A stretch of 64,000 bases of DNA from a bacterium (GTDB lineage: Bacteria; Patescibacteriota; Microgenomatia; Levybacterales; UBA12049): contig JAKALN010000002.1 in NCBI GenBank assembly GCA_021824155.1, positions 15,775-79,774 of the forward strand, read 5' to 3'. Below the pieces are notes generated by a model that worked only from the letters and a program-made list of their open reading frames with translations, did no database searches and was not told the DNA's origin. Each line of letters starts with the position of its first letter. Position 1 is the first letter of the stretch. Positions 1,461 to 24,315 of the stretch are shown here, piece by piece. The translations under genes and the position numbers were made by a program.

Positions 1461-3644
1461 ATGGGTGTTTCAATAATTATTGTCCACTACAAAGTAAAAG
1501 AAAAATTATTTGAATGTATTGATTCTATTTACTCTTCCAAACCCAAAAACTCATTTGAAATAATTGTTGTTGATAACGATGAGATTAAAACAATAGAAAA
1601 AGATTTAAAGAAAAAATTTCCAAAAGTAAGGTATATAAAAAGCAATGAGAATGTGGGATACGGTGCGGGAAATAATCTGGGGGCAAAGAATGCAAGCGGG
1701 AAATATTTGTTTTTTCTTAACCCCGATATCCGAATAGCTGGTAATTCAATAGATGTATTATATAAATTCTTGGAAAAAAATAAAAAAGCCGGGATTGTTT
1801 CGCCATTAATACTTGGCTCTGACAAAAAACCGCTTGACCGCCAGGGGTATAAAGAACTCAATCTTTTAAATGGTATTTTTACTTTTTCCTTTTTAAGAAG
1901 AAAATTTCCTCAGTTTAGCGTCGCAAGCTATTACTCCTTTTCCGATTGGGTAAAGGAGCCAATTAAGAAGGTTGATACCGTTTACGGAGCGGCATTAATG
2001 ATTTCTTCGAAACTTTTTAAAGAAGTTGGGGGATTTGACGAAAGATTTTTCCTGTATTTTGAAGAAAACGATTTGTCAAAAAGAGTAAGGGACTTAGGTT
2101 ATGAATTATATATAAATTCAAACTCAAAAATAATACATCATGTCGGCCAAAGTACAAAACAAACAAAGGAAAGAGACAAAATTTTTGCTAAAAGCAGATT
2201 TTTATATTTTAAAAAACATTTTGGAATAATCCAGGCATTACTTTTGGAATCTTTATTAAAAATTAATAAGGTTACACTTTTTTTAACATTGGTTTTAGCT
2301 TTGGCACTTGGTTTGAGGTTATATAACCTTTCCAACGGAATGGTATTTATAGGGGACCAGGGATGGTTCTATCTTTCCGCAAGAAACCTACTTATTTACG
2401 GAAACATTCCCCTCGTAGGTATAACATCAAGCCATACATGGCTTCATCAGGGTCCTTTATGGACATATATGCTGTCAATTGCGTTATTCTTATTTAATTT
2501 TAATCCTCTTTCGGGCGCGTATCTGACAATTCTATTTGGGTTGGGGACAATATATTTAATGTATAAAGTGGGGTCAATTTTATTATCTCAAAGAGCGGGT
2601 TTAATTGCAGCTTTGTTATATGCCTTTTCTCCTCTTCCCGCCTTCTATGATAGAATGCCTTTTGATCCTACACCGATTCCTTTTTTTACAATTTTATATT
2701 TTTATGTTTTAGCAAAGTGGGTGAGGGGAAATATAAACCACTTTCCTTTTATTTTACTGTTAATTGCTGTTCTTTATAATTTGGAGCTTTCCACGTTCAT
2801 ATTATTTTTTCCTTTCATGTTAATTATTATTTACGGATTGTTTACAAAAAAATACTGGGCAATTGGAATATTTAATAAAAAAACATTTATTTATTCATTA
2901 CTGGGAGCTTTATTTCCAATGCTTCCTGTAATAATTTATGATTTTTCCCATGGTTTTCCCCAAACCATTATTTTTTTAGGTTGGACAGTATATAAACCTT
3001 TTAGTTTTCTTGTAAAACATTCCTCCGGAAACTTGACCTCTAATTTTTACCCGGTTTTGAATTTTCTGGCCGTTAATATCCAAAATCTGGTTCTTGAAAA
3101 CGGATATTTTATAGGTCCGCTTCTTTTTGTACTTAGTATGGCCCTTCTGTTTTATATTACGGTTATAAAAAATAAGTTTAGGATTGAAAATCCAAATTCC
3201 ACCCTTTTGTTTTTATTGCTGTTTTCCCTTTTTGGGATCTTGGTTAACCAGACCCCTTCAGGAGCATATCTTTTTATACTATTTCCATTGGTAGTATTTT
3301 GCATTGCATTGTTTTTTGATTTTTTAATAGATATAAAACGAATGAAATATTTTGTAATTTTATTGCTAATTATTATTTCTATGTCGAATATAGTCTCTAT
3401 TTATAAAAATGATCATATTCCGGAATTTAAGAACAGGCTTAAAGCTGCCAGCGAAATAATTTCCCTAAGCGGGAATAAAGAGTACAATTTAATTGGAAAG
3501 GGAGAGGGAAGCCAGTTTAGAAGCTTTACAATGAATTATGAATATCTACTTTGGTGGAAAGGATATCCTGTTTCGGCAAATCCCGTAAAAACAAAAATTA
3601 TTGTCTGGGAGACAGGGAAAGGAATAACAGTATATAAATTATGA
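1461..3644 (+). CDS. GT2 glycosyltransferase domain fused to a large polytopic membrane domain of roughly 470 aa
   Basis: The N-terminus is 'VSIIIVHYKV...VVDNDE...YGAGNN' (GT2/GT-A). The C-terminal roughly 470 aa has many predicted TM helices. The start may be 1443 or 1461. Confidence 0.75.
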   Translation: MGVSIIIVHYKVKEKLFECIDSIYSSKPKNSFEIIVVDNDEIKTIEKDLKKKFPKVRYIKSNENVGYGAGNNLGAKNASGKYLFFLNPDIRIAGNSIDVLYKFLEKNKKAGIVSPLILGSDKKPLDRQGYKELNLLNGIFTFSFLRRKFPQFSVASYYSFSDWVKEPIKKVDTVYGAALMISSKLFKEVGGFDERFFLYFEENDLSKRVRDLGYELYINSNSKIIHHVGQSTKQTKERDKIFAKSRFLYFKKHFGIIQALLLESLLKINKVTLFLTLVLALALGLRLYNLSNGMVFIGDQGWFYLSARNLLIYGNIPLVGITSSHTWLHQGPLWTYMLSIALFLFNFNPLSGAYLTILFGLGTIYLMYKVGSILLSQRAGLIAALLYAFSPLPAFYDRMPFDPTPIPFFTILYFYVLAKWVRGNINHFPFILLLIAVLYNLELSTFILFFPFMLIIIYGLFTKKYWAIGIFNKKTFIYSLLGALFPMLPVIIYDFSHGFPQTIIFLGWTVYKPFSFLVKHSSGNLTSNFYPVLNFLAVNIQNLVLENGYFIGPLLFVLSMALLFYITVIKNKFRIENPNSTLLFLLLFSLFGILVNQTPSGAYLFILFPLVVFCIALFFDFLIDIKRMKYFVILLLIIISMSNIVSIYKNDHIPEFKNRLKAASEIISLSGNKEYNLIGKGEGSQFRSFTMNYEYLLWWKGYPVSANPVKTKIIVWETGKGITVYKL

Positions 3645-4393
3645 TTAGCGCGATTGTTCTTACAAAAAACGAAGAAAATAACATTATTGACTGTTTAGAT
3701 AGTATTTCCTGGTGTGATGAAATAATAGTTATAGACGATATCTCAAAAGACAGGACTCTTGAAGTTATAAGAAATTTTAATCCAAGGGTTAAAATATATC
3801 AAAGAAACTTACAGAATGATTTTTCCGCGCAAAGGAATTTCGGTTTGTCTAAGGCAAAAGGGGATTGGATTTTGTTTATAGATGCAGACGAAAGATTAAG
3901 TAACGGTTTAAAAGGAGAAATACAGGATTTTCTTGAGATAAAAAATAAAAATAATAAGGGGTTTTATTTGTATCGTAAAGACGTACTTTGGGGAAAACAA
4001 TTAAATCATGGCGAAGCGGGGAGTATAAAACTTTTAAGGTTTGGAAAAAAGGATACGGGAGAATGGAAAGGAAAAGTTCATGAAGTTTGGGATATAAAAG
4101 AAAACCTGGGAAATTTTAAGATGCCTCTTTACCATTTTCCGCATCAAAATATCGAGGAATTTATAAGAGAGATAAATTATTATACCGACTTACGGTCTAA
4201 GGAACTATTTGATAGGGGAGAGAGTGTCTCTTTTATAAAGATAGTTTTATATCCTCTTATAAAGTTTAAAGTAAACTATTTTTTAAGACTCGGGTTTCTG
4301 GATGGGGTCGAAGGCCTTGTTTTTGCCCTGATGATGAGTTTTCATTCTTTTTTGGTAAGAAGTAAGCTTTGGCTTTTATGGCAAAAAAAATAA
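3641..4393 (+). CDS. GT2 glycosyltransferase (WaaE/KdtX-like)
   Basis: It contains 'ISAIVLTKNEENNI...IIVIDDISKDRT...FIDADE'. Its start overlaps the upstream stop by 4 nt. Confidence 0.8.
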   Translation: MISAIVLTKNEENNIIDCLDSISWCDEIIVIDDISKDRTLEVIRNFNPRVKIYQRNLQNDFSAQRNFGLSKAKGDWILFIDADERLSNGLKGEIQDFLEIKNKNNKGFYLYRKDVLWGKQLNHGEAGSIKLLRFGKKDTGEWKGKVHEVWDIKENLGNFKMPLYHFPHQNIEEFIREINYYTDLRSKELFDRGESVSFIKIVLYPLIKFKVNYFLRLGFLDGVEGLVFALMMSFHSFLVRSKLWLLWQKK

Positions 4394-14215: not shown

Positions 14216-14247
14216 GTAACTTATTTTATCTATAAAATAGCCTCAAG

Positions 14248-17200
14248 TCAAGAAGAAAAATGACTGAAAGCCGATATTTTCTCCGCAATAATTATCGGTT
14301 TATCGTTTTTTGTGTCAATTTTTCCGTTTACTACGATGACAGAGTCTTTTGAAAGAATAGTTTTGTACATTTCGAATACTCTTGGGAAAACTATGCATTC
14401 TGCCAATATTCCTTTTTCATCGCTTATAGTTACGAAGGCCATTTCACTTCCATTTTTCTTTGTAAATATTCTCCTTATGTTTTCTATGAGTCCGCCTATA
14501 GTGACTTGCGTGCCCTCGTTTTCTTCCGTTAAAAGTTCTATTTCGTGGGTAACGTGTTCCCTTATTTTTATTAAGCTTTCCATTTGCGGGTGGGAGGTTA
14601 AATAGAAACCCAAAAACTCTTTTTCAAAGGCCAGCTTTTCGTTTGGGGTAAAGTCTTCAATGTTTTTTGGGCTTACTGATAATTCCTCGTTTTCTTCGGA
14701 GTCTCCGAATAAACTTGTTTGTCCGGACTTAATATCTTTAGTTTTTTTATGGGATTTTTCTATTATCTCAGGATATTTTATTAGAAGGTTTGCTCTGTTT
14801 CCAAATGAATCCATCGCGCCTGCTTTTATTAAGCTTTCAACGGTTTTTTTGTTTACAGCGCCCAAATCAACTCTGGAACAAAGGTCTTCAAGGGTTTTAA
14901 AAGTGCCTTTTTCTCTCTGCTCTAAAATACTGTTTATAGCCGCTTCTCCGACATTTTTTATTGCGGAGAGACCGAATCTTATATTGGTGTTTTCTTCAAT
15001 TGTAAATTCGCTTCCGGATTTATTTATATCCGGAGGTAGGACAGGAACTTTTAACCTTCTGCATTCGGCAACGGCCTGAGCTATTTTTTCATTCTTTATA
15101 GGCCCCGAACTGCCTCTGGATTCTGCGGTTAAAAGGGCGGTCATAAATTCAACGGGAAAATGGGCCTTAAGATATGCAGTTCGAAATGCGATTGTTGCGT
15201 AGCAGGCCGCATGGGCTTTGCCAAATCCATATCCGGCAAAGGGTTCAAATAAAATCCATAGTCCTTCGGCGTTTTTTTTAGACATACCGTTTGTTACGCA
15301 TCCGTCAACAAATTTATCGTGCTGTTTTTTCATTTCGGCGGGGATTTTCTTTCCTACGGCTTTTCTAAGCTTGTCCGCTTCAAGCCAGGAATATCCGGCA
15401 ACGTTAATGGCAGTTAAGAGAAGATCGTCCTGGAAGGTTATAATACCGTACGATTCTTTTAGTACTTCTTTTAGCCTTGGATCAGGATATTTAATAAGGT
15501 TGGGATTGTTTTTTCTTCTTATAAACTCCGGGATATTAGCCATAGGTCCCGGCCTATATAAAGCTACCATTGCCTGAAGATCAAAAATAGAAGTAGGTTT
15601 TAATTCTTTAATATATCTTCTCATTCCGGAAGATTCAAGCTGGAATATTCCGGTAGTCTCTCCCGATGCCAAAAGATCGTATGTTTTTTTGTCTTCAAAA
15701 GAAATATTGGAAAAATCTATGTCTTTATTCTGGTTATCTTTTATAAACCTTAACGCTTCCTGTATAATGGTTAAATTCCTAAGTCCCAAGAAGTCTATCT
15801 TTAAAAGTCCCACACCATCTTCTCCGATACTGTACATATCGTATTGAGTGACAATTTTATCTCCGTTTGTTTCCCTTTGAAGCGGTGTGTATTCTGTTAA
15901 TTCTTTGTCTGCAATAACTACTCCGGCAGCGTGGACCGAAGCATGCCTGGCAACACCTTCTATTTTTTTTGCCAAATCCAAAAGTTTTTTTGTCTCGGAT
16001 TCGGTTTGATATACCGCACGAAGCTCCGGATTTTGTTCCAAAGCTTTTTCTATTGTCATGGCATGTCCCTGCCAGCCCAGGGGTATCATTTTTGATATCC
16101 TGTCTGGTACAGAATAGGGAAGTCCCATTACCCGTCCGGTATCCCTTACCGAGCCTCTTGCCTCGATTGTTCCGAAGGTTATAATTTGGGCTACTTTATC
16201 TCTTCCGTATTTATCGGTGACGTATTCTATTACTTCGTCTCTTCTGTTATCAGCAAAATCCAAATCAATATCGGGAGGTGACGGACGCATAGGGTTTAAA
16301 AATCTCTCAAAGGGGAGTTTAAAAAATAATGGGTCTATGTCCGAAATTCCAAGGGCATAGGATATTATTGAGCCTGCATTAGAACCTCTCCCCGGGCCTA
16401 CCGTAATTCCTTTGGATTTTGCCCAAATAACAAAGTCTGCGACTATTAAGATATAAGTTTCATACCCTTTTTTTAAAATTATTGAAAGTTCGTAATCTGT
16501 TCGGTCTCTTATTTCTTTGGTAATAGTTCCATACCTATTTTTTAATCCTTCTTCTACTTTTTCAGTCATATACTGGGCGGGGGTTTTACCTTGGGGTACA
16601 TCAAATTGGGGCATTATCCATTTTCCAAGCGTTATTTCCAAATTACACATATCGGCTATTTTGACCGTGTTTTCTATAGCTTCCGGTGTTTGAATAAAAA
16701 GTCCTGCCATTTCTTCCGGGCTTTTTATATAAAAGTCGGGTGAAGAAATCATAGACAATTTCCTGTTAGGAGTGTCTAATGTTGTTTGGGTTTGGATGCA
16801 TAGAAGCGTTTCCTGGCCCTCTGCGTCCGTATTGTAAACGTAATGGTTATCGTTGGTTGCAACTAATGGGAGTCCGAGTTTTTGGGAAAGTGCAATAATT
16901 TTTTCGTTTAAAATATCCTGGCCTTTTATATTTGTGTGTTTTTGAATTTCAAGGTAAAAATGGTCTTTTCCAAATATTTCCGATAAAGTTTGTGCTCTTT
17001 TTACCGCTGTTTCTTCCTGGTTATTTAATAATGGTTCGGAAACATACCCGTTAATACAAGCGCTTAAACAAATAATTCCTTCATGGTATTCGCGCAGAAG
17101 TTGTATATCTGTTCTAGGTTTATAATAGTAACCTTCAAGATTGGCTACGGATATAATTTTCATTAGATTTTTATATCCGGTCAGGTTTTGAGCCAAAAGC

Positions 17201-17469
17201 ACTAAATGGTTGGAATCTCCGTCCACACCCGCTTCTTTATCGTGCCTGGTCCTTTTGCTTATGTATATTTCGCATCCTATTATGGGTTTTATTCCGGCCT
17301 CCAAGCATGTTTTATAAAAAGTAATAGTCCCATACATGTTTCCATGGTCTGTTATTGCGAGAGCTTTCATGTTCAGTTCCTTAGCACGGTTAACCATGTC
17401 TTTTATTTTCGAAAGACCGTCTAAAAGTGAGAATTCGCTGTGATTATGAAGGTGTACAAAATCTGCCAT
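14248..17469 (-). CDS. dnaE: DNA polymerase III alpha subunit
   Basis: The N-terminal PHP domain '[18 protein letters not shown]...[12 protein letters not shown]' is present. The 1073 aa length and a polymerase core motif '[14 protein letters not shown]' fit DnaE. Confidence 0.95.
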
Positions 17470-17476
17470 ATCTATA

Positions 17477-17968
17477 TTATATTGCTTTTGATAACAGTAC
17501 TGACGGGGCCTCCTGTGCCGGTTCCGCCGATATTATCTCTATAGGTACTCCTTTTTCCGGTGTTAGTTTTATTACTCCATCCCTTTGCATAGCTCCCAGG
17601 TGCCCGTATTCAGGATGAGGAACCGGTTCCTGTGTTTCTTGTATCCGAATTTTTGTTCCGTTTACCATTTTTCCCACCAATTCTTTTAAAATTCCAAATC
17701 TTTCAAGGCCGGTAGGAGGAATTGCTGAGCCGATTTTTTCAGCGGTTATTAAAAGGTCTATGTCTTTTCTTGGCAAGTTTTTTTTCAGGGTTCCTCCTAC
17801 AGCATAGATATTTCCTGTTATGCCTTGTTCATCTGTGACGTCTTCGAATCTTTGTATAAGTGTTTCTATGTTGGTTCTGTCATCCGTCTCTCCTGCAGAG
17901 GTGAATCTTTCAAGATAACTTGTTCTATCTAATGGTGTTTGTTCTGCGACTGCTGTTATTTCTGCCAT
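17477..17968 (-). CDS. Minimal nucleotidyltransferase (Pol-beta superfamily NTase fold) protein
   Basis: '[19 protein letters not shown]' matches the hG[GS]x9-13 DxD NTase signature. Its amino-acid composition is poorer in K, I and N than its neighbours. Confidence 0.5.
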
Positions 17969-17972
17969 ATTA

Positions 17973-18770
17973 TTAGTTTCCGTTACTTGGGTTATCTATT
18001 GTTGTGACGTTTTGGTAATCTTCATAGGAATATAGAATGTTGTGACCTTCTGTTTTTGAGTCTTTTTTAGCCATGTAAAGAACTTTGTCAGCTTTCTTAC
18101 TTAATTGTGCGATAATTTCAGTTATTTGTTGTTCTATTTCACCTGGTTCATGTTTCTCTCCCAAGAAACCTAGCTCTTCCGGATGGAGTGTTGCGATTCC
18201 TGCTCCGATAAATATGTTGTTTGCATTGAATTGAAAATTAAGTCTTTCAAATAATTTTCTTATCCCTTCAGGACTTACACCGCTTAATACAAGTGCGAAT
18301 TCATCTCCTTTTTCCCCCATTCTTGAAACAAAATCTAGTCCTTCCCTTGTGTTTTCACTTAATATTTTTGCTGTATTTTTAAGCAGTTTATCGCCTGCTG
18401 GGTGTCCTCCATGTTCTTCGTCATCATTAACAGCTTTTAAATTATTCAAATCTAACAGCATTAGACTTACCGTATCTCCTGTTCTTGCGGTTCTTCTTAA
18501 GGTTTCCCTTATTTCTCTTTCAAACCCGTTTCTGTTATAAATTTCTGTTAAAGAATCTATTTCACCCTTTTGCCTTTCAGCATCAATTTCTATATCTTTT
18601 ACTTCAACTGTATCGAAAACTGCTCTTCGAACAGCTTTTATATCCGAAGGATGAGCGAATTTCCTTCTCCCATTTTCTATAGCCCTTTTTATGTACGGTC
18701 TTGCTTTTTCATATTGTGCGCGTAATGCAGTAAATCCTGTAGGCTGTTTTTCTGGAATAGATTCGCTCAT
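17973..18770 (-). CDS. Stand-alone GGDEF-domain protein (diguanylate-cyclase-like) with a non-canonical 'GEKGDEF' signature
   Basis: It aligns with the GGDEF domain through 'DSLTEIYNRNGF...LLDLNNLKAVND...GH.AGDKLL...VSRMGEKGDEFALVL...AKKDSKTEGHNIL'. It has no sensor domain or TM helix. Its start overlaps the gatB stop by 4 nt. Confidence 0.7.
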   Translation of the reverse strand: MSESIPEKQPTGFTALRAQYEKARPYIKRAIENGRRKFAHPSDIKAVRRAVFDTVEVKDIEIDAERQKGEIDSLTEIYNRNGFEREIRETLRRTARTGDTVSLMLLDLNNLKAVNDDEEHGGHPAGDKLLKNTAKILSENTREGLDFVSRMGEKGDEFALVLSGVSPEGIRKLFERLNFQFNANNIFIGAGIATLHPEELGFLGEKHEPGEIEQQITEIIAQLSKKADKVLYMAKKDSKTEGHNILYSYEDYQNVTTIDNPSNGN

Positions 18771-20086
18771 TTTAACTCCTCTAAAATTAATTTTCTTAGC
18801 ATATTGGTATCTATTTTCTTTTTCAGTATATACATAACCTGACCGATTGCAAATTGTATTACAGAATCTTTGCCTTTTTTGTAATCTTCTTTGATTCCGG
18901 GATTGTCTTTGAGTACTTTCCGTACAATATTTCTCAGTTCATCTGCATTAATGTCTTCTTTTTTTTCGGATTGCAGTATGTTTTCAATCAACTTAGCAGG
19001 GACAATGTTGCCTATGTCAACTTTTTTATTAATTATGTTGTTAGCTATTTGTTTAGCTGTTACTCTATTTTTTTGGCCGATTTTAAATACTTCTTCAAAA
19101 TAGTCCGCTAGGGTTTTTTCTTTTGTTAGTATTTCACCGTCGTATAGGGAAAGCCCGTATTGTTTTTGGAACCTGTTTAGCTTGACGTTGGGAAGTTCGG
19201 GTAAAGTTTCTTTGAGTTTGTTAATTTCCGGTTCCTTCCATCTAATCGGCGGAATATCCGGCTCGGGAAAGTATCTATAATCTGATGCCTCTTCTTTAAC
19301 CCTCTGTGAAACAGTAGATGAATTTTTTTCTACAAATCCTCTTGTTTCCTGGACAGGTGTTTTCCCCTCGTCTAGAATTTCGGCCTGTCTTTTAATTTCG
19401 TAATCTATTGCTTTTCCTACGAAAGCAAAAGAGTTTATATTTTTAACTTCTACCTTGTATTTTGGTAATCCCTTCTCTCCGTCTTTTTTTAAGGATATGT
19501 TCGGCTCAAGTCTCATATTTCCTTTTTCCATGTCGGCATTTGAAACCCCTAAATACCTGACAATTTGTTGTAGTTTTTGCAGGTATTCTTTTACTTCGTC
19601 CGCGGTTTCAAAATCCGGCTCTGTGACTATTTCTACCAAAGGAACACCCGAGCGGTTAAAATCTATAAGGCTTACTTTTTTTTCGTCTACGGTTTCGTGT
19701 ATCAGTTTTCCGGTGTCTTCCTCCATGTGTACTCTGGTTATTCCGATTTTTTTACCGTTTTGTAAAGTTATATGGCCGTTTAAACAGAACGGTTTATCAT
19801 ATTGGGAAATCTGATAGCCTTTTGCTAAGTCCGGATAAAAATAATTTTTTCTGTCAAATTTTGAAAACAGGGGGATCCCGCAGTTTAATGCGAGGCCAAT
19901 TTGGACACACCATTCGACCGCCTTTTTATTTGGTACAGGTAAGGCTCCCGGCAGTCCAAGGCAGACAGGACAAGTATGCGTGTTTGGTTTTTGTCCAAAG
20001 TAGTCCGCGCTGCAGCTGCAAAACATTTTTGAATTGGTTTTTAATTCAACGTGTACTTCCAGTCCTATTACCGCTTTGTATTTCAT
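18767..20086 (-). CDS. gatB: Asp-tRNA(Asn)/Glu-tRNA(Gln) amidotransferase subunit B
   Basis: 'MKYKAVIGLEVHVELKTNSKMFCSCS' is the GatB N-terminus. Confidence 0.95.
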   Translation of the reverse strand: MKYKAVIGLEVHVELKTNSKMFCSCSADYFGQKPNTHTCPVCLGLPGALPVPNKKAVEWCVQIGLALNCGIPLFSKFDRKNYFYPDLAKGYQISQYDKPFCLNGHITLQNGKKIGITRVHMEEDTGKLIHETVDEKKVSLIDFNRSGVPLVEIVTEPDFETADEVKEYLQKLQQIVRYLGVSNADMEKGNMRLEPNISLKKDGEKGLPKYKVEVKNINSFAFVGKAIDYEIKRQAEILDEGKTPVQETRGFVEKNSSTVSQRVKEEASDYRYFPEPDIPPIRWKEPEINKLKETLPELPNVKLNRFQKQYGLSLYDGEILTKEKTLADYFEEVFKIGQKNRVTAKQIANNIINKKVDIGNIVPAKLIENILQSEKKEDINADELRNIVRKVLKDNPGIKEDYKKGKDSVIQFAIGQVMYILKKKIDTNMLRKLILEELK

Positions 20087-21522
20087 AAATTAGGTTTTAA
20101 TTTCCTCCACTGCTCAGTTTGGGTTATTTTTTCGTATTCAAATGCAACGGACAGAACCAGTTCCTCGCTAAACTGCGGTCCTATTATTTGCATTCCTATC
20201 GGAAGCCCCGAATTTGAAAAGCCGACGGGGATATTTATTCCTGCCAAACCCGCAATTGAAGAGGGTTCTACCAAAACATCCGCAATTTCGCCAAACATGG
20301 CAGCGTCTTTCGTCGCTCCGACAGGCAGAGCAAGGGAAGGGCTTGTGGGGGCAATTATTACATCCACTTTTCCAAAAGCTTTCTCAAAGTCATTGATTAT
20401 TACAGTTCTTACCTGTTGGGCTTTATTGTAATATTGGTCGTAGTAACCTGAAGAAAGTGCGTAGGTCCCAAACATTATCCTTCTTTTTGCTTCATCTGCG
20501 AAGGCGCCTCTACCGTTTCCGTATCTAATTCCGTCGTATCTTGCGAGGTTTGAGGATACTTCCGATCTCTGGATTATCGTATAGACATCTATTGCATATT
20601 TTGGGTCGAATAATTTAATGTTTTCTATTTTGCCGCCTGCTTTTTCCAGTTTTTTTATAGCTTCTTTTACGTTTTTTTCGACTTCTTTGTCCAACCCTTC
20701 TATGAAATATTCGTTTGAAATTCCGATTTTTAGTTCTTTAATATCTTTTTTTAGTTTTTGGCTGTACTTTAAAACAGGTTTGGGGGAAGTAGTTGCATCC
20801 ATTTCGTCTTTTCCGGCAAGGACCTCCAGGATTATAGCGCTGTCTTCGGTTGTTTTTGTTATGGGGCCCGGGGAGTCAAGTGATGAACCCATTGCGATAA
20901 CTCCGTATCTGGATACTCTTCCGTAGGTGGGTTTTAATCCTACCACACCGCACCATGAGGCGGGCTGCCTTATTGATCCGGCTGTTTCCGAACCTATTGC
21001 GGCAATTGTCTGGTCGGCTGCTACGCTGGCTGCTGAGCCTCCTGAAGAGCCTCCAGGCAAGTGTTTCGTGTTCCACGGGTTTTTACTGGCTCCGAAGTCT
21101 GAAGTTTCTGTAGAGGAACCATGAGCCCAGGCATCCATGTTGGTTTTCCCCAATATTACACAGCCGGCTTCTTTTATCTTTTTTATAACTGTAGAATCAA
21201 ACGGGGGAATATAACTTTCTAAAACCTTACTGGATGCAGTAGTTTTAATTCCTTTTGTGGAAAAATTATCTTTTACCGCAAGCGGAATTCCCAAAAGGGG
21301 AAGTTCTACTGCGTCCGAAAGGGCTTTGTCTGCAATTTTAGCCTGCTCAAGCGCGTCTTTTTCCGTAACCGTAACAAATGCATTTAATTTAGGTTCAGTT
21401 GCTTTAATCCGTTCAAGACATGCTTTTGTTAATTCAACAGATGAAAAATCTTTATTTTTCAAACCTTCTTTTGCCTGTTTTAATGTTAAATTATTAAGAT
21501 TCATTTTCTTCAAAAATAGCAT
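20083..21522 (-). CDS. gatA: Glu-tRNA(Gln) amidotransferase subunit A
   Basis: It has the amidase signature 'GGSSGGSAASVAA' and 'GTDTGGSIRQPA'-like 'GSETAGSIRQPA'. Confidence 0.95.
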   Translation of the reverse strand: MLFLKKMNLNNLTLKQAKEGLKNKDFSSVELTKACLERIKATEPKLNAFVTVTEKDALEQAKIADKALSDAVELPLLGIPLAVKDNFSTKGIKTTASSKVLESYIPPFDSTVIKKIKEAGCVILGKTNMDAWAHGSSTETSDFGASKNPWNTKHLPGGSSGGSAASVAADQTIAAIGSETAGSIRQPASWCGVVGLKPTYGRVSRYGVIAMGSSLDSPGPITKTTEDSAIILEVLAGKDEMDATTSPKPVLKYSQKLKKDIKELKIGISNEYFIEGLDKEVEKNVKEAIKKLEKAGGKIENIKLFDPKYAIDVYTIIQRSEVSSNLARYDGIRYGNGRGAFADEAKRRIMFGTYALSSGYYDQYYNKAQQVRTVIINDFEKAFGKVDVIIAPTSPSLALPVGATKDAAMFGEIADVLVEPSSIAGLAGINIPVGFSNSGLPIGMQIIGPQFSEELVLSVAFEYEKITQTEQWRKLKPNL

Positions 21523-21784
21523 TTACTTTAAACATTCCGTTGTGCGCAGATTTTGTATTAGACAGAGACTCATCTTGGGTTAAGGAAGGTCCGGCCAGGT
21601 CTTTCCTCGTTACGTTTTCAAGGCCGGTTACCTGGCTTGTGGGTTCAATGCCTTTTGTCTCAACATCACCAAGCTCCTCAACGTATTTGATTGTTTCTTC
21701 AAGCTGTTTTTCGAATTTTGTTTTTTCTTCCAAGGACAAAGGGAGATTTGCAAGTTTTGCTATATGGGAGACATCAATTTTCAT
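21494..21784 (-). CDS. gatC: Glu-tRNA(Gln) amidotransferase subunit C
   Basis: 'MKIDVSHIAKLANLPLSLEEKTKFEKQLEETIKYVEEL' is GatC. Confidence 0.9.
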   Translation of the reverse strand: MKIDVSHIAKLANLPLSLEEKTKFEKQLEETIKYVEELGDVETKGIEPTSQVTGLENVTRKDLAGPSLTQDESLSNTKSAHNGMFKVNAIFEENES

Positions 21785-21816
21785 TGAGAATATTATATTC
21801 TACTGCCATATTTATA

Positions 21817-22275
21817 TCAATTGGAGGATTTTCTTACAACTTGGTGTATTCTTAAATTTAACCTTTTTGCTGTTTGATATTCATTTGTTGCTCCTTTTGA
21901 CAGCTCCCATTGTGGAGTCATAAAGACGTCTGTAATGTATCCTGATTCTAGGATTTCCCTCCAGAATCTTTGAGATAGTTCCTCTCTGCCCGCCGGCGGT
22001 TTGGGTAAGAGCCTAAAAGCCGCTTCACTTTCTATAAAATCCAGTGCACAAAAGACAGGGTAGTCAACGTTCCTTTTTATAAATCTTGTATATCTGGCAA
22101 GGTTTTTAATATTTCTCACTAAATATACAGAACCCTCAGATTTAATTACTCCGGATACAAACCCTATTTTTCCTGATTCGCTTTGTTCTTTTGCTTCCTT
22201 TAATATATCCAATGCACGCTGTTTAGTTCTTTCAAAATCTCTAGAGTCTGCAAACGCTTTTAATCTCTCTGTCAT
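21817..22275 (-). CDS. DUF4406-like protein with a nucleoside 2-deoxyribosyltransferase-like fold
   Basis: 'IGFVSGVI...' resembles the G-rich N-terminus of that family. 'DVFMTPQWELSKGATNEYQTAKRLNLRI' matches the C-terminal MxPxWxxSxGAxxExxxA motif. Confidence 0.45.
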   Translation of the reverse strand: MTERLKAFADSRDFERTKQRALDILKEAKEQSESGKIGFVSGVIKSEGSVYLVRNIKNLARYTRFIKRNVDYPVFCALDFIESEAAFRLLPKPPAGREELSQRFWREILESGYITDVFMTPQWELSKGATNEYQTAKRLNLRIHQVVRKSSN

Positions 22276-22276
22276 C

Positions 22277-23035
22277 TTAAATATTTATATTTAACCTTTT
22301 AGCAATTACTTTTCTGGCTTTTTCTTCTTCTGAATTATCTAATTTTTCCAGTTCAAAATTTTTTCCGTATTTTATTTCGAGAGCCTTCTTTATTAAGTAA
22401 TCTGCAAGCTCAGGATTTTTTGGCAGTATTGGTCCGTGGAAATAAGTACCGATAGAGTTTTTATAAATAGCCCCTTCTTCCTTTGCGCTGTCGTTGCTTC
22501 CGAATCCTTTTAATACTTTTCCCAAAGGTTTAATGCCATTTCCAAGGATAGTTCTTCCGCCGTGATTTTCAAAACCGACAAGAACTGTTTTTTTGCCGAA
22601 TAAGTTTTGGGCATCTATCGCAATATTACCAATTAGACGTTTTCTTCCCGGATTTTCCGTGTACATATCCAGTATTCCCAGTTGAGGTAATTTATTGCCA
22701 TCGGCAGTTTTGTAATACTGTCCCAAATACTGAAATCCTCCGCAGATATATAGTCCCGGAATTCCGTTTTCAATAGCTTCTTTAAAAGCTTTTTTCTTTT
22801 TTGTTAAGTCTTTTGCCACAACTTCCTGCTGTGTATCCTGTGCGCCGCCCATCATAAAGAGGTCGCATAATGAAAAATCCTTATCCGATATTCCAATTCC
22901 TATTTCTTTAATTTCGGCTGTAATTCCGCGCCACTGGCAGCGTTTTTGCAGAACAATAACATTGCCCCTGTCCCCGTATGTATTCATCAGCTCGGGGTAA
23001 AGCCATCCAATGACCAATGATTTCTGATTTGTCAT
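22277..23035 (-). CDS. gatD: Lipid II isoglutaminyl synthase, glutaminase subunit GatD (CobQ-like GATase)
   Basis: 'LYPELMNTYGDRGN', 'ICGGFQYLG', 'GFENHGGRT' and 'GTYFHGPILPKN' closely follow Staphylococcus GatD. Confidence 0.9.
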   Translation of the reverse strand: MTNQKSLVIGWLYPELMNTYGDRGNVIVLQKRCQWRGITAEIKEIGIGISDKDFSLCDLFMMGGAQDTQQEVVAKDLTKKKKAFKEAIENGIPGLYICGGFQYLGQYYKTADGNKLPQLGILDMYTENPGRKRLIGNIAIDAQNLFGKKTVLVGFENHGGRTILGNGIKPLGKVLKGFGSNDSAKEEGAIYKNSIGTYFHGPILPKNPELADYLIKKALEIKYGKNFELEKLDNSEEEKARKVIAKRLNINI

Positions 23036-24315
23036 AATATTTTCTTGCCTATTAAAATCTTCCTGGTTTCAAGCATTGCAGAGTAGGTAGGCAGGATAAA
23101 AAGGGTTTCTCCTTCCGGCACATTGTTTAGAGATACTTTTACAGCTTGGTCCAAATCTTCAAAAGTTTCGGATTTAAGCTCTGAATACTTTAGCCTTAAC
23201 GCCATATCATAAGCCCTGTCGCCTGAGGTAAATATTTTAATCTTTGAGTCTATTAAAATTTCGAAGTCAATGTCCCAAATCCATGATACATCCCTTCCAT
23301 CTGGAATCCTATCGTTAAGAATTATTAAAAGGTACTTTGCTTTAGCATCGTTTATTGTTCTTAAAGATTCATTGAAGCTTGTTGGATTTTTTGCAAGAAA
23401 AAACTTAATTTTTTTATCTTTGGCAATGATCTCTTCCTGCCTTCCAAAAGCAGGCTTGAAATTAATGAGAGATTTATTTATGTTATCTTCACTTATACCT
23501 GTATCTTTTGCAAAAAGAATCGCTGCCAAGACGTTATACATGTTATAAACACCTTCAAGAGGATGATTATTTGTTTTCTCTATGTCTAAAAGCGGTCTTT
23601 TAAGATTACAGTTTGGGCAAGACCAGTTTCCAAGATGAGAATAATAAACCGGGTTTAATTCCAGTTTAGACGAACATTTGGGACAGAGAGTGGAGTCTGC
23701 AGCGTTTTGGGGAATTTCGTTTTTTAAAGAAAGTTCATTCAAGCCAAAATATTGAACATTCATTCCCGGCTTCATTCCAAGATAAGCTATTCGGGGATCG
23801 TCGGCGTTTAGGATAAACTTGGTTTTGTCCTTAAGCTTTTCGTAAATTTGTGCCCAATTTTTTGAAATTGTGTTAACTTCTCCATATCTGTCCAATTGAT
23901 CCCTGAAAAGGTTAAGAGCAATTAGATAATCAGGCTTAATTTTTTGACTGATTTTTGTAAGCGCGTTTTCATCTATTTCAAATACCGCAAAATCTTTTCT
24001 AATTTTGCCAAAGATATCTGCTTCAATAACCAGAGAAGATGCGACACCGTTTAATAAATTTGCTCCCGATTGGTTTACAAAGACAGTTTTGCCGTTTTTT
24101 TCCAGAATTGTTTCTATAAGTTTTGCAGTTGTTGTTTTACCGTTTGTGCCGGTTACAAAAATAACTGTTGTTTTTGAATATTCAAGGATATCGGAAACAA
24201 AATCAGGATTTATGGAAAGGGCAATGTGTCCGGGCCACGTTGAGCCATTCCCAAGGTTTAAAGCCCCGCTTAAAAAAGATAAGAATTTTCCTATTAATAT
24301 TAACAATGTGTTCAT
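23032..24315 (-). CDS. murT: Lipid II isoglutaminyl synthase, Mur-ligase-like subunit MurT
   Basis: It has a Mur ligase central domain 'VTGTNGKTTTAKLI'. It has a Cys4 ribbon 'CPKC...CPNC' and a DUF1727-like C-terminus. It overlaps gatD by 4 nt. Confidence 0.9.
   Translation of the reverse strand: MNTLLILIGKFLSFLSGALNLGNGSTWPGHIALSINPDFVSDILEYSKTTVIFVTGTNGKTTTAKLIETILEKNGKTVFVNQSGANLLNGVASSLVIEADIFGKIRKDFAVFEIDENALTKISQKIKPDYLIALNLFRDQLDRYGEVNTISKNWAQIYEKLKDKTKFILNADDPRIAYLGMKPGMNVQYFGLNELSLKNEIPQNAADSTLCPKCSSKLELNPVYYSHLGNWSCPNCNLKRPLLDIEKTNNHPLEGVYNMYNVLAAILFAKDTGISEDNINKSLINFKPAFGRQEEIIAKDKKIKFFLAKNPTSFNESLRTINDAKAKYLLIILNDRIPDGRDVSWIWDIDFEILIDSKIKIFTSGDRAYDMALRLKYSELKSETFEDLDQAVKVSLNNVPEGETLFILPTYSAMLETRKILIGKKIL

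What the first reader, a model, noticed from the sequence alone, without database searches (positions are those of the whole stretch)
17477..18770. Stand-alone GGDEF domain with a disrupted 'GEKGDEF' signature, co-transcribed with a minimal nucleotidyltransferase inside a core-gene array
The minus-strand array gatC-gatA-gatB-[GGDEF]-[NTase]-dnaE-atpBEFHAGDC is packed with 4-nt overlaps or gaps of 10 nt or less. The GGDEF protein aligns well to PleD-type domains but carries a 2-residue insertion in the catalytic GG(D/E)EF loop (RMGEKGDEF). It has no sensor or TM domain. It is followed immediately by a 163-aa Pol-beta-type minimal NTase (GGx9DIDLL). Both proteins are compositionally less K/I/N-rich than their neighbours. 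A nucleotide-signalling pair is unexpected in a reduced genome. An altered signature loop could mean a non-c-di-GMP product or a degenerate receptor.
Basis: partly seen in the sequence, partly recalled or inferred. Interest (0 to 1): 0.55.

Follow-up and report, generated by a model that had tools for sequence, protein, structure and literature searches.

The report
Orphan GGDEF protein plus minimal nucleotidyltransferase
Between two housekeeping genes of a small, CPR-like bacterial genome sit a sensor-less c-di-GMP-cyclase-like protein, whose catalytic loop has a two-residue insertion found only in this species, and a tiny nucleotidyltransferase from an unnamed family; related genomes carry the two side by side, fused, or one without the other, so they look like a loosely coupled, uncharacterised nucleotide module rather than an artefact.

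Summary
Both genes are real. The 265-aa protein (17973..18770, minus) matches Pfam GGDEF at 85.9 bits. Alignments to solved cyclases confirm RMG-EK-GDEF against RYG--GEEF. Metal, guanine and phosphate residues are kept, but the I-site is RxxxD. The EK insertion is specific to this species: the syntenic orthologues read GGDEF, GGDEF and HGDEF, and it was the only such case among 171 homologues.

Across relatives, the gatB-dnaE slot holds GGDEF+NTase (3 lineages), one GGEEF::NTase fusion, NTase alone (4 lineages) or GGDEF alone (1 lineage). The link is therefore supported but not obligate. The NTase is the constant part and the GGDEF site is often degenerate.

Composition is not atypical and no defence-system profile matches. 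Whether the insertion abolishes c-di-GMP synthesis, and what the NTase modifies, cannot be decided by computation. I rate it a new variant of known kinds, of moderate interest.

The parts
17973..18770 (-). Gene for a 265-aa stand-alone GGDEF-domain protein
   Evidence: The ORF is. Pfam PF00990 scores 85.9 bits and TIGR00254 84.5 bits. There are 45 PDB diguanylate-cyclase sequence hits, best E 9.8e-14. It is single-copy in the window.
18561..18770 (-). N-terminal ~70 residues: no known domain, no TM segment, basic and probably helical. This is the best-conserved part of the protein against the orthologue.
   Evidence: The only Pfam hit covers residues 71-238. Residues 21-80 are 85-95% identical to P0002, against 45-75% for the rest.
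18057..18560 (-). GGDEF (diguanylate-cyclase-like) domain, residues 71-238
   Evidence: D107, K112, N115, H123, D127, D156, E157, F158 and K235 align with the conserved catalytic and binding columns.
18306..18317 (-). Codons GGG GAA AAA GGA, encoding G152-E153-K154-G155. The 2-residue EK insertion (18309..18314) splits the GG of the GG[DE]EF hairpin.
   Evidence: It is absent from orthologue P0002 (RIGGDEF) and unique among 171 GGDEF homologues.
18414..18422 (-). 3-residue insertion (about D117-E119) between the N115-D116 and G-H123 motifs of the nucleotide pocket, shared with the L001 orthologue only
   Evidence: The query reads NDDEEHGGH against ND---FGH in the PDB alignments. P0002 reads NDDKIYGGH. 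L006, L022 and the other homologues lack it.
17477..17968 (-). Gene for a 163-aa minimal Pol-beta-fold nucleotidyltransferase (ORF2) of an unnamed family
17756..17797 (-). NTase signature G58-G59-x9-D69-I-D71
   Evidence: G58, D69 and D71 are invariant in 93/93 family members, G59 is present in 88/93 and R67 in 90/93.
17537..17539 (-). E144, the predicted third catalytic carboxylate (motif GVPIEII)
   Evidence: E in 79 and D in 10 of 93 family members. It lies on a beta-strand (143-147) of the model.
18767..20086 (-). gatB, the upstream flank of the slot (4-nt overlap with the GGDEF start)
14248..17469 (-). dnaE, the downstream flank of the slot (7-nt gap after ORF2)
21792..21820 (-). Best sigma-70-like promoter match (11/12), just upstream of gatC. 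It is the candidate start of the gatCAB-GGDEF-ORF2-dnaE transcription unit.
   Evidence: This is a consensus match only.

Best explanation
The region encodes two functional, co-transcribed proteins that fill a conserved slot between gatB and dnaE in a clade of small-genome (Microgenomates/CPR-like) bacteria.

The constant element is ORF2. It is a minimal Pol-beta-fold nucleotidyltransferase with an invariant GG...DxD...E metal site, and most likely an active Mg-dependent NMP-transferase. Its acceptor is unknown; it could be an RNA 3' end, a protein side chain or a small molecule.

The GGDEF protein is an ancestral but dispensable partner of this enzyme. Across the clade it is adjacent to ORF2, fused to it, lost, or degenerate at its active site. 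I infer that it acts as a guanine-nucleotide-binding or c-di-GMP-producing accessory to the NTase, not as part of a conventional sensor-driven c-di-GMP network.

In the window's species all ligand-contacting residues are kept. Three indels have nevertheless accumulated around the pocket: a 3-residue insertion, an I-site changed from RxxD to RxxxD, and the species-specific EK insertion in the GG|DEF hairpin. Canonical cyclase output is therefore probably reduced or altered, while the protein as a whole stays under purifying selection.

Shown: domain and fold identities, the indels, synteny, the fusion, and residue conservation.
Inferred: co-transcription, the functional coupling, the impaired cyclase activity, and the NTase activity.
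For: - GGDEF identity and the insertion.
- The insertion is specific to this species: P0002 has RIGGDEF, P0210 has RLGGDEF, P0172 has RRGGEEF, and only 1 of 171 homologues carries an insertion.
- Purifying selection: GGDEF dN is 0.22 against the L001 orthologue, equal to atpB at 0.23. ORF2 dN is 0.50, with omega below 1.
- ORF2 catalytic residues: G58, D69 and D71 in 93/93, and E/D144 in 89/93.
- Coupling: gatB-GGDEF-ORF2-dnaE occurs in the window, L001 and L006. The fusion P0172 sits in the same slot of L026 on a 41.6-kb contig. P0126 is ORF2 plus a degenerate GGDEF-like C-terminal domain (hhalign probability 86%, E 4.7e-6).
- GGDEF site decay across the module: GEKGDEF in the window; HGDEF with D344->T in L006; PGKYG in P0126; altered base-recognition residues (GEPEGN) in P0172.
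- Operon: tight junctions and no terminator.
Against: - ORF2 occurs without any GGDEF in the same slot in four lineages (L011, L012, L015, L030) and in other contexts (L013, L014, L023). A GGDEF occurs without ORF2 in L022. Each protein can therefore work alone.
- The adjacency could simply reflect conserved gene order in a very syntenic region.
- Fusions of genes 4 nt apart can arise by loss of one stop codon and need not be adaptive. Only one clear fusion was found among 153 clusters.
- The P0126 GGDEF-like call is of moderate confidence.
- From my own knowledge, natural AGDEF and SGDEF variants show that the first signature position tolerates change. The EK insertion may therefore leave cyclase activity intact.
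- No interaction, activity or receptor was tested. No PilZ, EAL, HD-GYP or c-di-GMP riboswitch was seen in the 64-kb window, but the rest of the genome was not available.
Confidence: 0.45

Rival explanations
1. The GGDEF protein is a fully active, constitutive diguanylate cyclase that dimerises through its N-terminal helices. It supplies c-di-GMP to receptors encoded elsewhere in the genome. The EK insertion merely lengthens a tolerant beta-hairpin turn, and ORF2 is an unrelated neighbour.
For: - All residues assigned to metal, guanine and phosphate binding are present: D107, N115, D127, G155-D156-E157-F158 and K235.
- The third signature residue holds the Mg ion and the fourth is the general base (PMC6456294). 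Both are intact.
- Purifying selection is comparable to atpB.
- The orthologues in L001 and L022 are canonical.
- ORF2 occurs without a GGDEF in many lineages.
Against: - The active-site geometry is tight. The 'Goldilocks' distance model shows that a one-methylene change can inactivate the enzyme (PMC6456294).
- The insertion is unique among 171 homologues.
- Two further indels flank the pocket and the I-site.
- No c-di-GMP receptor, phosphodiesterase or riboswitch is seen in the window.
- The fusion P0172 argues that ORF2 is not an unrelated neighbour.
Confidence: 0.3
2. The adjacency has no functional meaning. GGDEF and ORF2 are two independent small accessory genes that occupy the same permissive junction of a highly syntenic operon, and the fusion is a neutral read-through of adjacent genes.
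For: - All four occupancy states of the slot exist: both genes, fused, ORF2 only, GGDEF only.
- ORF2 family members also sit next to rpmB (L023) or opposite Fic genes (L014, L027).
- There is only one clear fusion among 153 clusters.
Against: - The order GGDEF then ORF2 is kept across lineages whose GGDEF proteins share only about 28-32% identity.
- A second, reversed-order architecture (ORF2 plus a degenerate GGDEF-like domain, P0126) lies in a different genomic context.
- Reduced genomes rarely keep two non-functional or unrelated inserts inside a core operon.
Confidence: 0.2
3. The pair is a mobile anti-phage or toxin-antitoxin type nucleotide system, comparable to CBASS or Pycsar, or to MNT-HEPN.
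Against: - No PADLOC model matches either protein above noise.
- There is no HEPN or effector gene; the neighbours are gatB and dnaE.
- The position is the same in diverged genomes, which fits vertical inheritance.
- Composition matches the genome.
- ORF2 is about half the size of a CD-NTase.
Confidence: 0.05

Closest known systems
[quoted passage not shown]
   Same: The domain matches over its full length (85.9 bits). The metal-binding Asp, guanine-recognising Asn and Asp, the D-E-F of the signature and the C-terminal Lys are conserved.
   Different: - The GG of the signature is split by a 2-residue insertion (G-EK-GDEF).
- There is a 3-residue insertion in the N-D...G-H loop and a ~20-residue insertion late in the domain.
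- The I-site spacing is RxxxD instead of RxxD.
- There is no sensor, receiver or TM domain.
- The gene sits inside a gatCAB-dnaE operon of a small CPR-like genome.
Degenerate GGDEF domains used as nucleotide receptors or interaction modules (for example those reviewed for E. coli in PMC5635695; PelD- and LapD-type proteins, from my own knowledge)
   Same: The signature motif departs from the consensus. Related module members have HGDEF or a fully lost motif.
   Different: Known receptor-type degenerate GGDEFs usually keep an intact RxxD I-site to bind c-di-GMP. Here the I-site spacing is altered, while the active-site ligand residues are intact.
Hypr GGDEF enzymes (GacA; cGAMP synthases; PMC6456294)
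   Same: This is a GGDEF enzyme family in which small active-site changes alter the product.
   Different: The defining Ser at the PleD D344 position is absent; the window protein has Asp (D127). Only the L006 relative has Thr at that position.
Minimal nucleotidyltransferases of the Pol-beta superfamily (Pfam NTP_transf_2 PF01909; MNT antitoxins, ANT(2''), MenT toxins, and the catalytic cores of TUTases and CCA-adding enzymes)
   Different: - There is no significant sequence-profile match. Only 3 of 93 relatives touch PF01909, at E about 1e-3.
- There is no HEPN partner and no substrate-binding second domain.
- The family has its own conserved motifs (N33, K-P-x-P-R-K-D-I-D, P115, H-x-G-S, G-T-P-I-E).
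- It has a recurrent position between gatB and dnaE.

Membership tests
GGDEF domain / diguanylate cyclase (PF00990) | Domain HMM match above the curated threshold | tested here: met
   85.9 bits against a cut-off of 23.8; TIGR00254 84.5 against 37.4.
GGDEF domain / diguanylate cyclase (PF00990) | Contiguous GG[D/E]EF active-site hairpin | tested here: not met
   The sequence is G-E-K-G-D-E-F, with a 2-residue gap in every aligned cyclase.
GGDEF domain / diguanylate cyclase (PF00990) | Metal-binding Asp (PleD D327) plus the third and fourth signature residues (Mg ligand and general base) | tested here: met
   D107, D156 and E157 are conserved. Their roles are taken from PMC6456294.
GGDEF domain / diguanylate cyclase (PF00990) | Guanine-recognition Asn and Asp (PleD N335, D344) | tested here: met
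   N115 and D127 align to these columns.
GGDEF domain / diguanylate cyclase (PF00990) | Allosteric I-site RxxD five residues before the signature (present in many members, not all) | tested here: not met
   The window reads R-E-G-L-D (RxxxD), as does P0002 (R-Q-G-L-D). L006 and P0172 keep RxxD.
GGDEF domain / diguanylate cyclase (PF00990) | Synthesis of c-di-GMP from 2 GTP by a homodimer | not testable with these tools
   This needs an enzyme assay.
Hypr GGDEF (cGAMP-forming) | Ser in place of the guanine-specific Asp (PleD D344 / GacA S348) | tested here: not met
   The window has D127. The criterion is from PMC6456294.
Pol-beta superfamily nucleotidyltransferase (minimal NTase, PF01909-like) | Sequence-profile match to an NTase family | tested here: not met
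   There is no Pfam, NCBIfam or PADLOC hit and no PDB sequence hit. Only 3 of 93 relatives reach PF01909, at E 1.4e-3 or weaker.
Pol-beta superfamily nucleotidyltransferase (minimal NTase, PF01909-like) | hG[GS]-x9-13-Dh[DE]h motif plus a third acidic residue | tested here: met
   The motif reads [18 protein letters not shown]58, D69 and D71 are invariant in 93/93, and position 144 is E or D in 89/93.
Pol-beta superfamily nucleotidyltransferase (minimal NTase, PF01909-like) | NTase alpha-beta core fold | tested here: met
Pol-beta superfamily nucleotidyltransferase (minimal NTase, PF01909-like) | Nucleotidyl-transfer activity | not testable with these tools
   This needs an enzyme assay.
MNT-HEPN toxin-antitoxin | Adjacent HEPN-domain partner | tested here: not met
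   The neighbours are the GGDEF gene and dnaE. No PADLOC hit.
CBASS / CD-NTase defence systems | CD-NTase profile match and an adjacent effector gene | tested here: not met
   No PADLOC model matches ORF2. At 163 aa it is about half the size of a CD-NTase, and there is no effector gene.

The most novel reading that the evidence does not exclude
GGDEF and ORF2 form a previously undescribed two-enzyme nucleotide module that is ancestral to a clade of CPR/Microgenomates bacteria and hard-wired into the gatCAB-dnaE operon. In this reading the minimal NTase is controlled by the GGDEF partner's guanine-nucleotide product, or acts on that product. This would give these reduced genomes a private second-messenger or RNA/protein-nucleotidylation circuit linked to translation and replication genes. 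The window's GEKGDEF variant would be a natural intermediate toward a non-catalytic regulatory GGDEF subunit.
Probability: 0.15. Interest if true: 0.7.

Novelty: new variant of a known kind. Interest (0 to 1): 0.45.

Why it matters
c-di-GMP signalling is essentially unexplored in CPR/Patescibacteria. Full-text searches found no paper that deals with it.

This locus offers three things:
- A natural insertion inside the GG|DEF hairpin, with a canonical 68%-identical orthologue as a built-in control. That gives a clean test of how much geometric change the cyclase active site tolerates.
- An unnamed family of about 150 clusters of minimal nucleotidyltransferases with an invariant catalytic set, repeatedly wedged between gatB and dnaE.
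- Gene-fusion evidence that links a GGDEF domain to a Pol-beta-fold NTase, a combination I did not find described.

If the coupling is real, it would define a new output for GGDEF proteins. If not, the result is still a tidy example of active-site drift in an orphan signalling gene of a reduced genome.

Tried and rejected
- **Foreign origin or horizontal transfer.** Rejected. GC, GC3 and K/I/N content lie within the range of neighbouring core genes, and the position is syntenic in diverged relatives.
- **Sequencing or assembly artefact for the EK insertion.** Rejected. The identical protein is found on 8 contigs from several assemblies.
- **Pseudogene or decay.** Rejected for the gene as a whole. 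Its dN equals that of atpB, although dS is saturated, so omega values are only rough.
- **Defence system or toxin-antitoxin.** No PADLOC support, and PHROGs gave only generic GGDEF matches.
- **Sequence-profile identification of ORF2.** Pfam, NCBIfam, PADLOC, PHROGs, and both phmmer and a 93-sequence profile against PDB sequences all gave nothing significant.
- **c-di-GMP partners in the window.** No Rfam riboswitch was found, only 7 tRNAs. There are no EAL, HD-GYP or second GGDEF motifs. A single PilZ-regex hit at about 61036 is low-complexity and was dismissed.
- **C-terminal extension of P0100.** It is not GGDEF-like.
- **Searches that failed or were unavailable.** The search for related loci failed with the broad alignments because no conserved 7-mer was available. 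The afdb50 fold library was unavailable. The listing of cluster members returned no names or taxonomy.
- **Literature searches.** Searches for GGDEF in CPR/Patescibacteria, or together with minimal NTases, found nothing relevant.
Full report
**1. What is in the sequence**

The minus strand carries a gene array:
- gatC (21494..21784), gatA (20083..21522), gatB (18767..20086)
- a 265-aa ORF (17973..18770) and a 163-aa ORF (17477..17968)
- dnaE (14248..17469)
- atpB-E-F-H-A-G-D-C

The junctions around the two ORFs are a 4-nt overlap (ATGA) with gatB, a 4-nt gap between the two ORFs, and a 7-nt gap before dnaE. The strongest promoter-like match on the minus strand (11/12) lies just upstream of gatC. 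No terminator-like site occurs on the minus strand between gatC and the end of dnaE. The 32-nt dnaE-atpB spacer carries further promoter-like matches. A gatC-to-dnaE transcript is therefore a reasonable inference, but it is not shown.

The claim of atypical composition also fails. K+I+N is 21.5% and 19.0%, against 17-31% in the neighbours. GC is 0.358 and 0.413, against 0.372 for the window.

**2. The GGDEF protein**

Pfam GGDEF matches residues 71-238 at 85.9 bits, and TIGR00254 matches at 84.5 bits. Forty-five solved cyclase sequences match, with a best E of 9.8e-14. No other domain is found, and the N-terminal 70 residues are hydrophilic and basic.

The HMMER alignments show RMGEKGDEF opposite RYG--GEEF, so the 2-residue insertion is real. 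They also show a 3-residue insertion, NDDEEHGGH against ND---FGH. A 14-sequence alignment adds two more differences: an I-site changed from RxxD to R-E-G-L-D, and a ~20-residue insertion late in the domain.

The ligand-contacting columns are intact: D107, K112, N115, H123, D127, G155, D156, E157, F158 and K235. According to the Hypr-GGDEF study (PMC6456294):
- the third signature residue holds the Mg ion;
- the fourth is the general base, acting across the dimer;
- the distance between the Mg ion and the base-reading residue is critical (the 'Goldilocks' model).

The window protein keeps Asp at the base-reading position, so nothing suggests a non-guanine substrate.

**3. The insertion is specific to this species**

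In a database of 5.8 billion proteins, the protein has one close relative, P0002 (68% identity). P0002 lies in the same gatB-X-Y-dnaE-atpB context in another assembly (L001) and reads RIGGDEF. Two more syntenic relatives read RLGGDEF (P0210, L022) and AHPHGDEF (P0209, L006).

Of 171 retrieved GGDEF homologues, 162 have GG[DE]EF and only the window protein has an insertion. The identical window protein occurs on 8 contigs from several assemblies, so the insertion is not an error.

Against L001, the gene's dN is 0.22, the same as atpB at 0.23. dS is saturated. Residues 21-80 are 85-95% identical to the orthologue, more than the catalytic domain. The gene is therefore under purifying selection.

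**4. The second protein (ORF2)**

It has no hit in Pfam, NCBIfam, PADLOC, PHROGs or PDB sequences. The word-based search found only three distant relatives. A profile search of 1.84 billion cluster representatives found 153.

In a 93-member alignment:
- G58, D69, D71, P115 and G131 are invariant;
- G59, R67 and N33 are nearly invariant;
- position 144 is E or D in 89 of 93.

This is the hG[GS]-x9-DhDh ... h[DE]h pattern of Pol-beta-type nucleotidyltransferases.

ORF2 is therefore a minimal NTase by motif and fold, and it belongs to an unnamed family.

**5. Comparative context**

The slot between gatB and dnaE is occupied in four ways:
- GGDEF then ORF2: the window, L001 and L006.
- A single 439-aa fusion, P0172: GGDEF domain at residues 75-221 with RRGGEEF, and the ORF2 domain at 273-436. 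It lies in L026 on a 41.6-kb contig and was seen on two contigs.
- ORF2 alone: L011, L012 (a Levybacteria MAG, with near-identical metagenome copies L016-L019), L015 and L030.
- GGDEF alone: L022.

ORF2 relatives also occur elsewhere: after rpmB in L023, and convergent with a Fic gene in L014 (a Daviesbacteria MAG) and L027.

The L027 protein, P0126, carries the ORF2 domain followed by a region that hhalign aligns to the GGDEF profile (probability 86%, E 4.7e-6). Its signature is replaced by PGKYG. I treat this as tentative.

A rough tree from the first 149 residues of DnaE scatters the GGDEF-containing loci among the ORF2-only ones. That fits an ancestral GGDEF+ORF2 pair with repeated losses, but the tree is too short to be reliable.

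**6. Interpretation**

ORF2 is the constant element, with an invariant catalytic set. The GGDEF partner is dispensable and often altered at its active site:
- GEKGDEF in the window;
- HGDEF with D344->T in L006;
- altered base-recognition residues in P0172;
- a lost motif in P0126.

The fusion, together with the kept gene order across GGDEF proteins that share only about 28-32% identity, supports a functional link. The solo occurrences show the link is facultative.

I therefore favour a loosely coupled module. In it, the NTase is the working enzyme, and the GGDEF protein supplies or senses a guanine nucleotide. In this species, cyclase output is probably reduced or changed by the accumulated indels.

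Cyclase activity cannot be ruled out. Natural AGDEF and SGDEF variants are active (my own knowledge), and every ligand residue is intact. The acceptor of the NTase is unknown.

Readings as a defence system or a toxin-antitoxin pair are disfavoured.

**7. Limits**

- Only 64 kb of the genome was available. No c-di-GMP receptor, phosphodiesterase or riboswitch was seen there.
The assignment to a CPR/Microgenomates-like lineage rests on 66-85% DnaE identity to MAGs labelled Levybacteria and Daviesbacteria, and on shared synteny. Two related MAGs are labelled 'uncultured Gammaproteobacteria', but they have the same gene order and a DnaE N-terminus 81% identical to the Levybacteria MAG's.
- No co-fold or structure of the GGDEF protein could be run, because the quota went to ORF2.
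- Literature searches found no prior description of GGDEF proteins in CPR or of GGDEF-minimal-NTase pairs.

**8. Verdict**

The disrupted signature is a single-species quirk in an otherwise canonical, rare orthologue group. The more interesting result is the recurrent, sometimes fused association with an unnamed minimal NTase family in the gatB-dnaE slot. I rate it a new variant of known kinds, with moderate interest (0.45).

Noticed in passing
L026:5001-6320 (JGI 3300050184, contig Ga0502760_0001592): P0172 is a 439-aa single protein that fuses a GGDEF domain (RRGGEEF) to the ORF2-type NTase domain. It lies between gatB and dnaE. In the NTase part, the third acidic residue is Q (GTPIQIS).
   Followed up: partly
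L027:77-1195 (Logan SRR22388341): P0126 is a 372-aa protein with an N-terminal ORF2-type NTase domain and a C-terminal region that aligns to the GGDEF profile (hhalign probability 86%) but has PGKYG in place of GGDEF. This may be a reversed-order fusion with a dead GGDEF-like domain.
   Followed up: partly
L014:6797-7873 (-) and L027:1176-2252 (-): In two loci, ORF2-family genes are followed by a convergent 358-aa Fic/DOC-family gene (Pfam PF02661, about 78-80 bits). Fic proteins are AMPylators, so this second nucleotidyl-transfer neighbour may be meaningful or may be lineage synteny.
   Followed up: no
P0105, P0116 (267 and 287 aa) and P0100 (326 aa), ORF2-family members: These members carry C-terminal extensions of about 90-150 residues with no Pfam match. 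The extensions of P0105 and P0116 resemble each other (…LTHPDG…ILKMLMN…). The P0100 extension is not GGDEF-like.
   Followed up: partly
L026:576-1816 and 3228-3677: In this relative the gatCAB genes are interrupted by two tandem His_Phos_1 (histidine phosphatase) genes between gatC and gatA, and by a DUF5680 gene between gatA and gatB. The gat-dnaE array seems generally permissive to small inserts in this clade.
   Followed up: no
window 21817..22275 (-): A 152-aa ORF lies immediately upstream of gatC. It has no Pfam match and only weak PHROG similarity to nucleoside 2-deoxyribosyltransferase (E 3e-4) and MazG-like pyrophosphatase (E 3e-3). It could be another nucleotide-metabolism gene next to the array.
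   Followed up: partly
window 22277..24315 (-): A GatD-like glutamine amidotransferase (GATase_3, 134 bits) overlaps by 4 nt with a MurT-type Mur ligase (MurT_C plus Mur_ligase_M). This is the lipid II isoglutaminyl synthase pair, located upstream of the gat operon.
   Followed up: partly
L011 and L013 (CAYHUY010000005.1, CAYWJV010000022.1): Two MAGs titled 'uncultured Gammaproteobacteria' carry ORF2-family genes. L011 has the CPR-type gatA-gatB-ORF2-dnaE-atpB order, and its DnaE N-terminus is 81% identical to that of a Levybacteria MAG. The taxonomic label looks wrong.
   Followed up: partly
window 14223..14318 (-): Two strong promoter-like matches (11/12 and 10/12) sit at the 3' end of dnaE and in the 32-nt spacer before atpB. 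This suggests the atp genes have their own promoter, separate from the gatC-dnaE unit.
   Followed up: no
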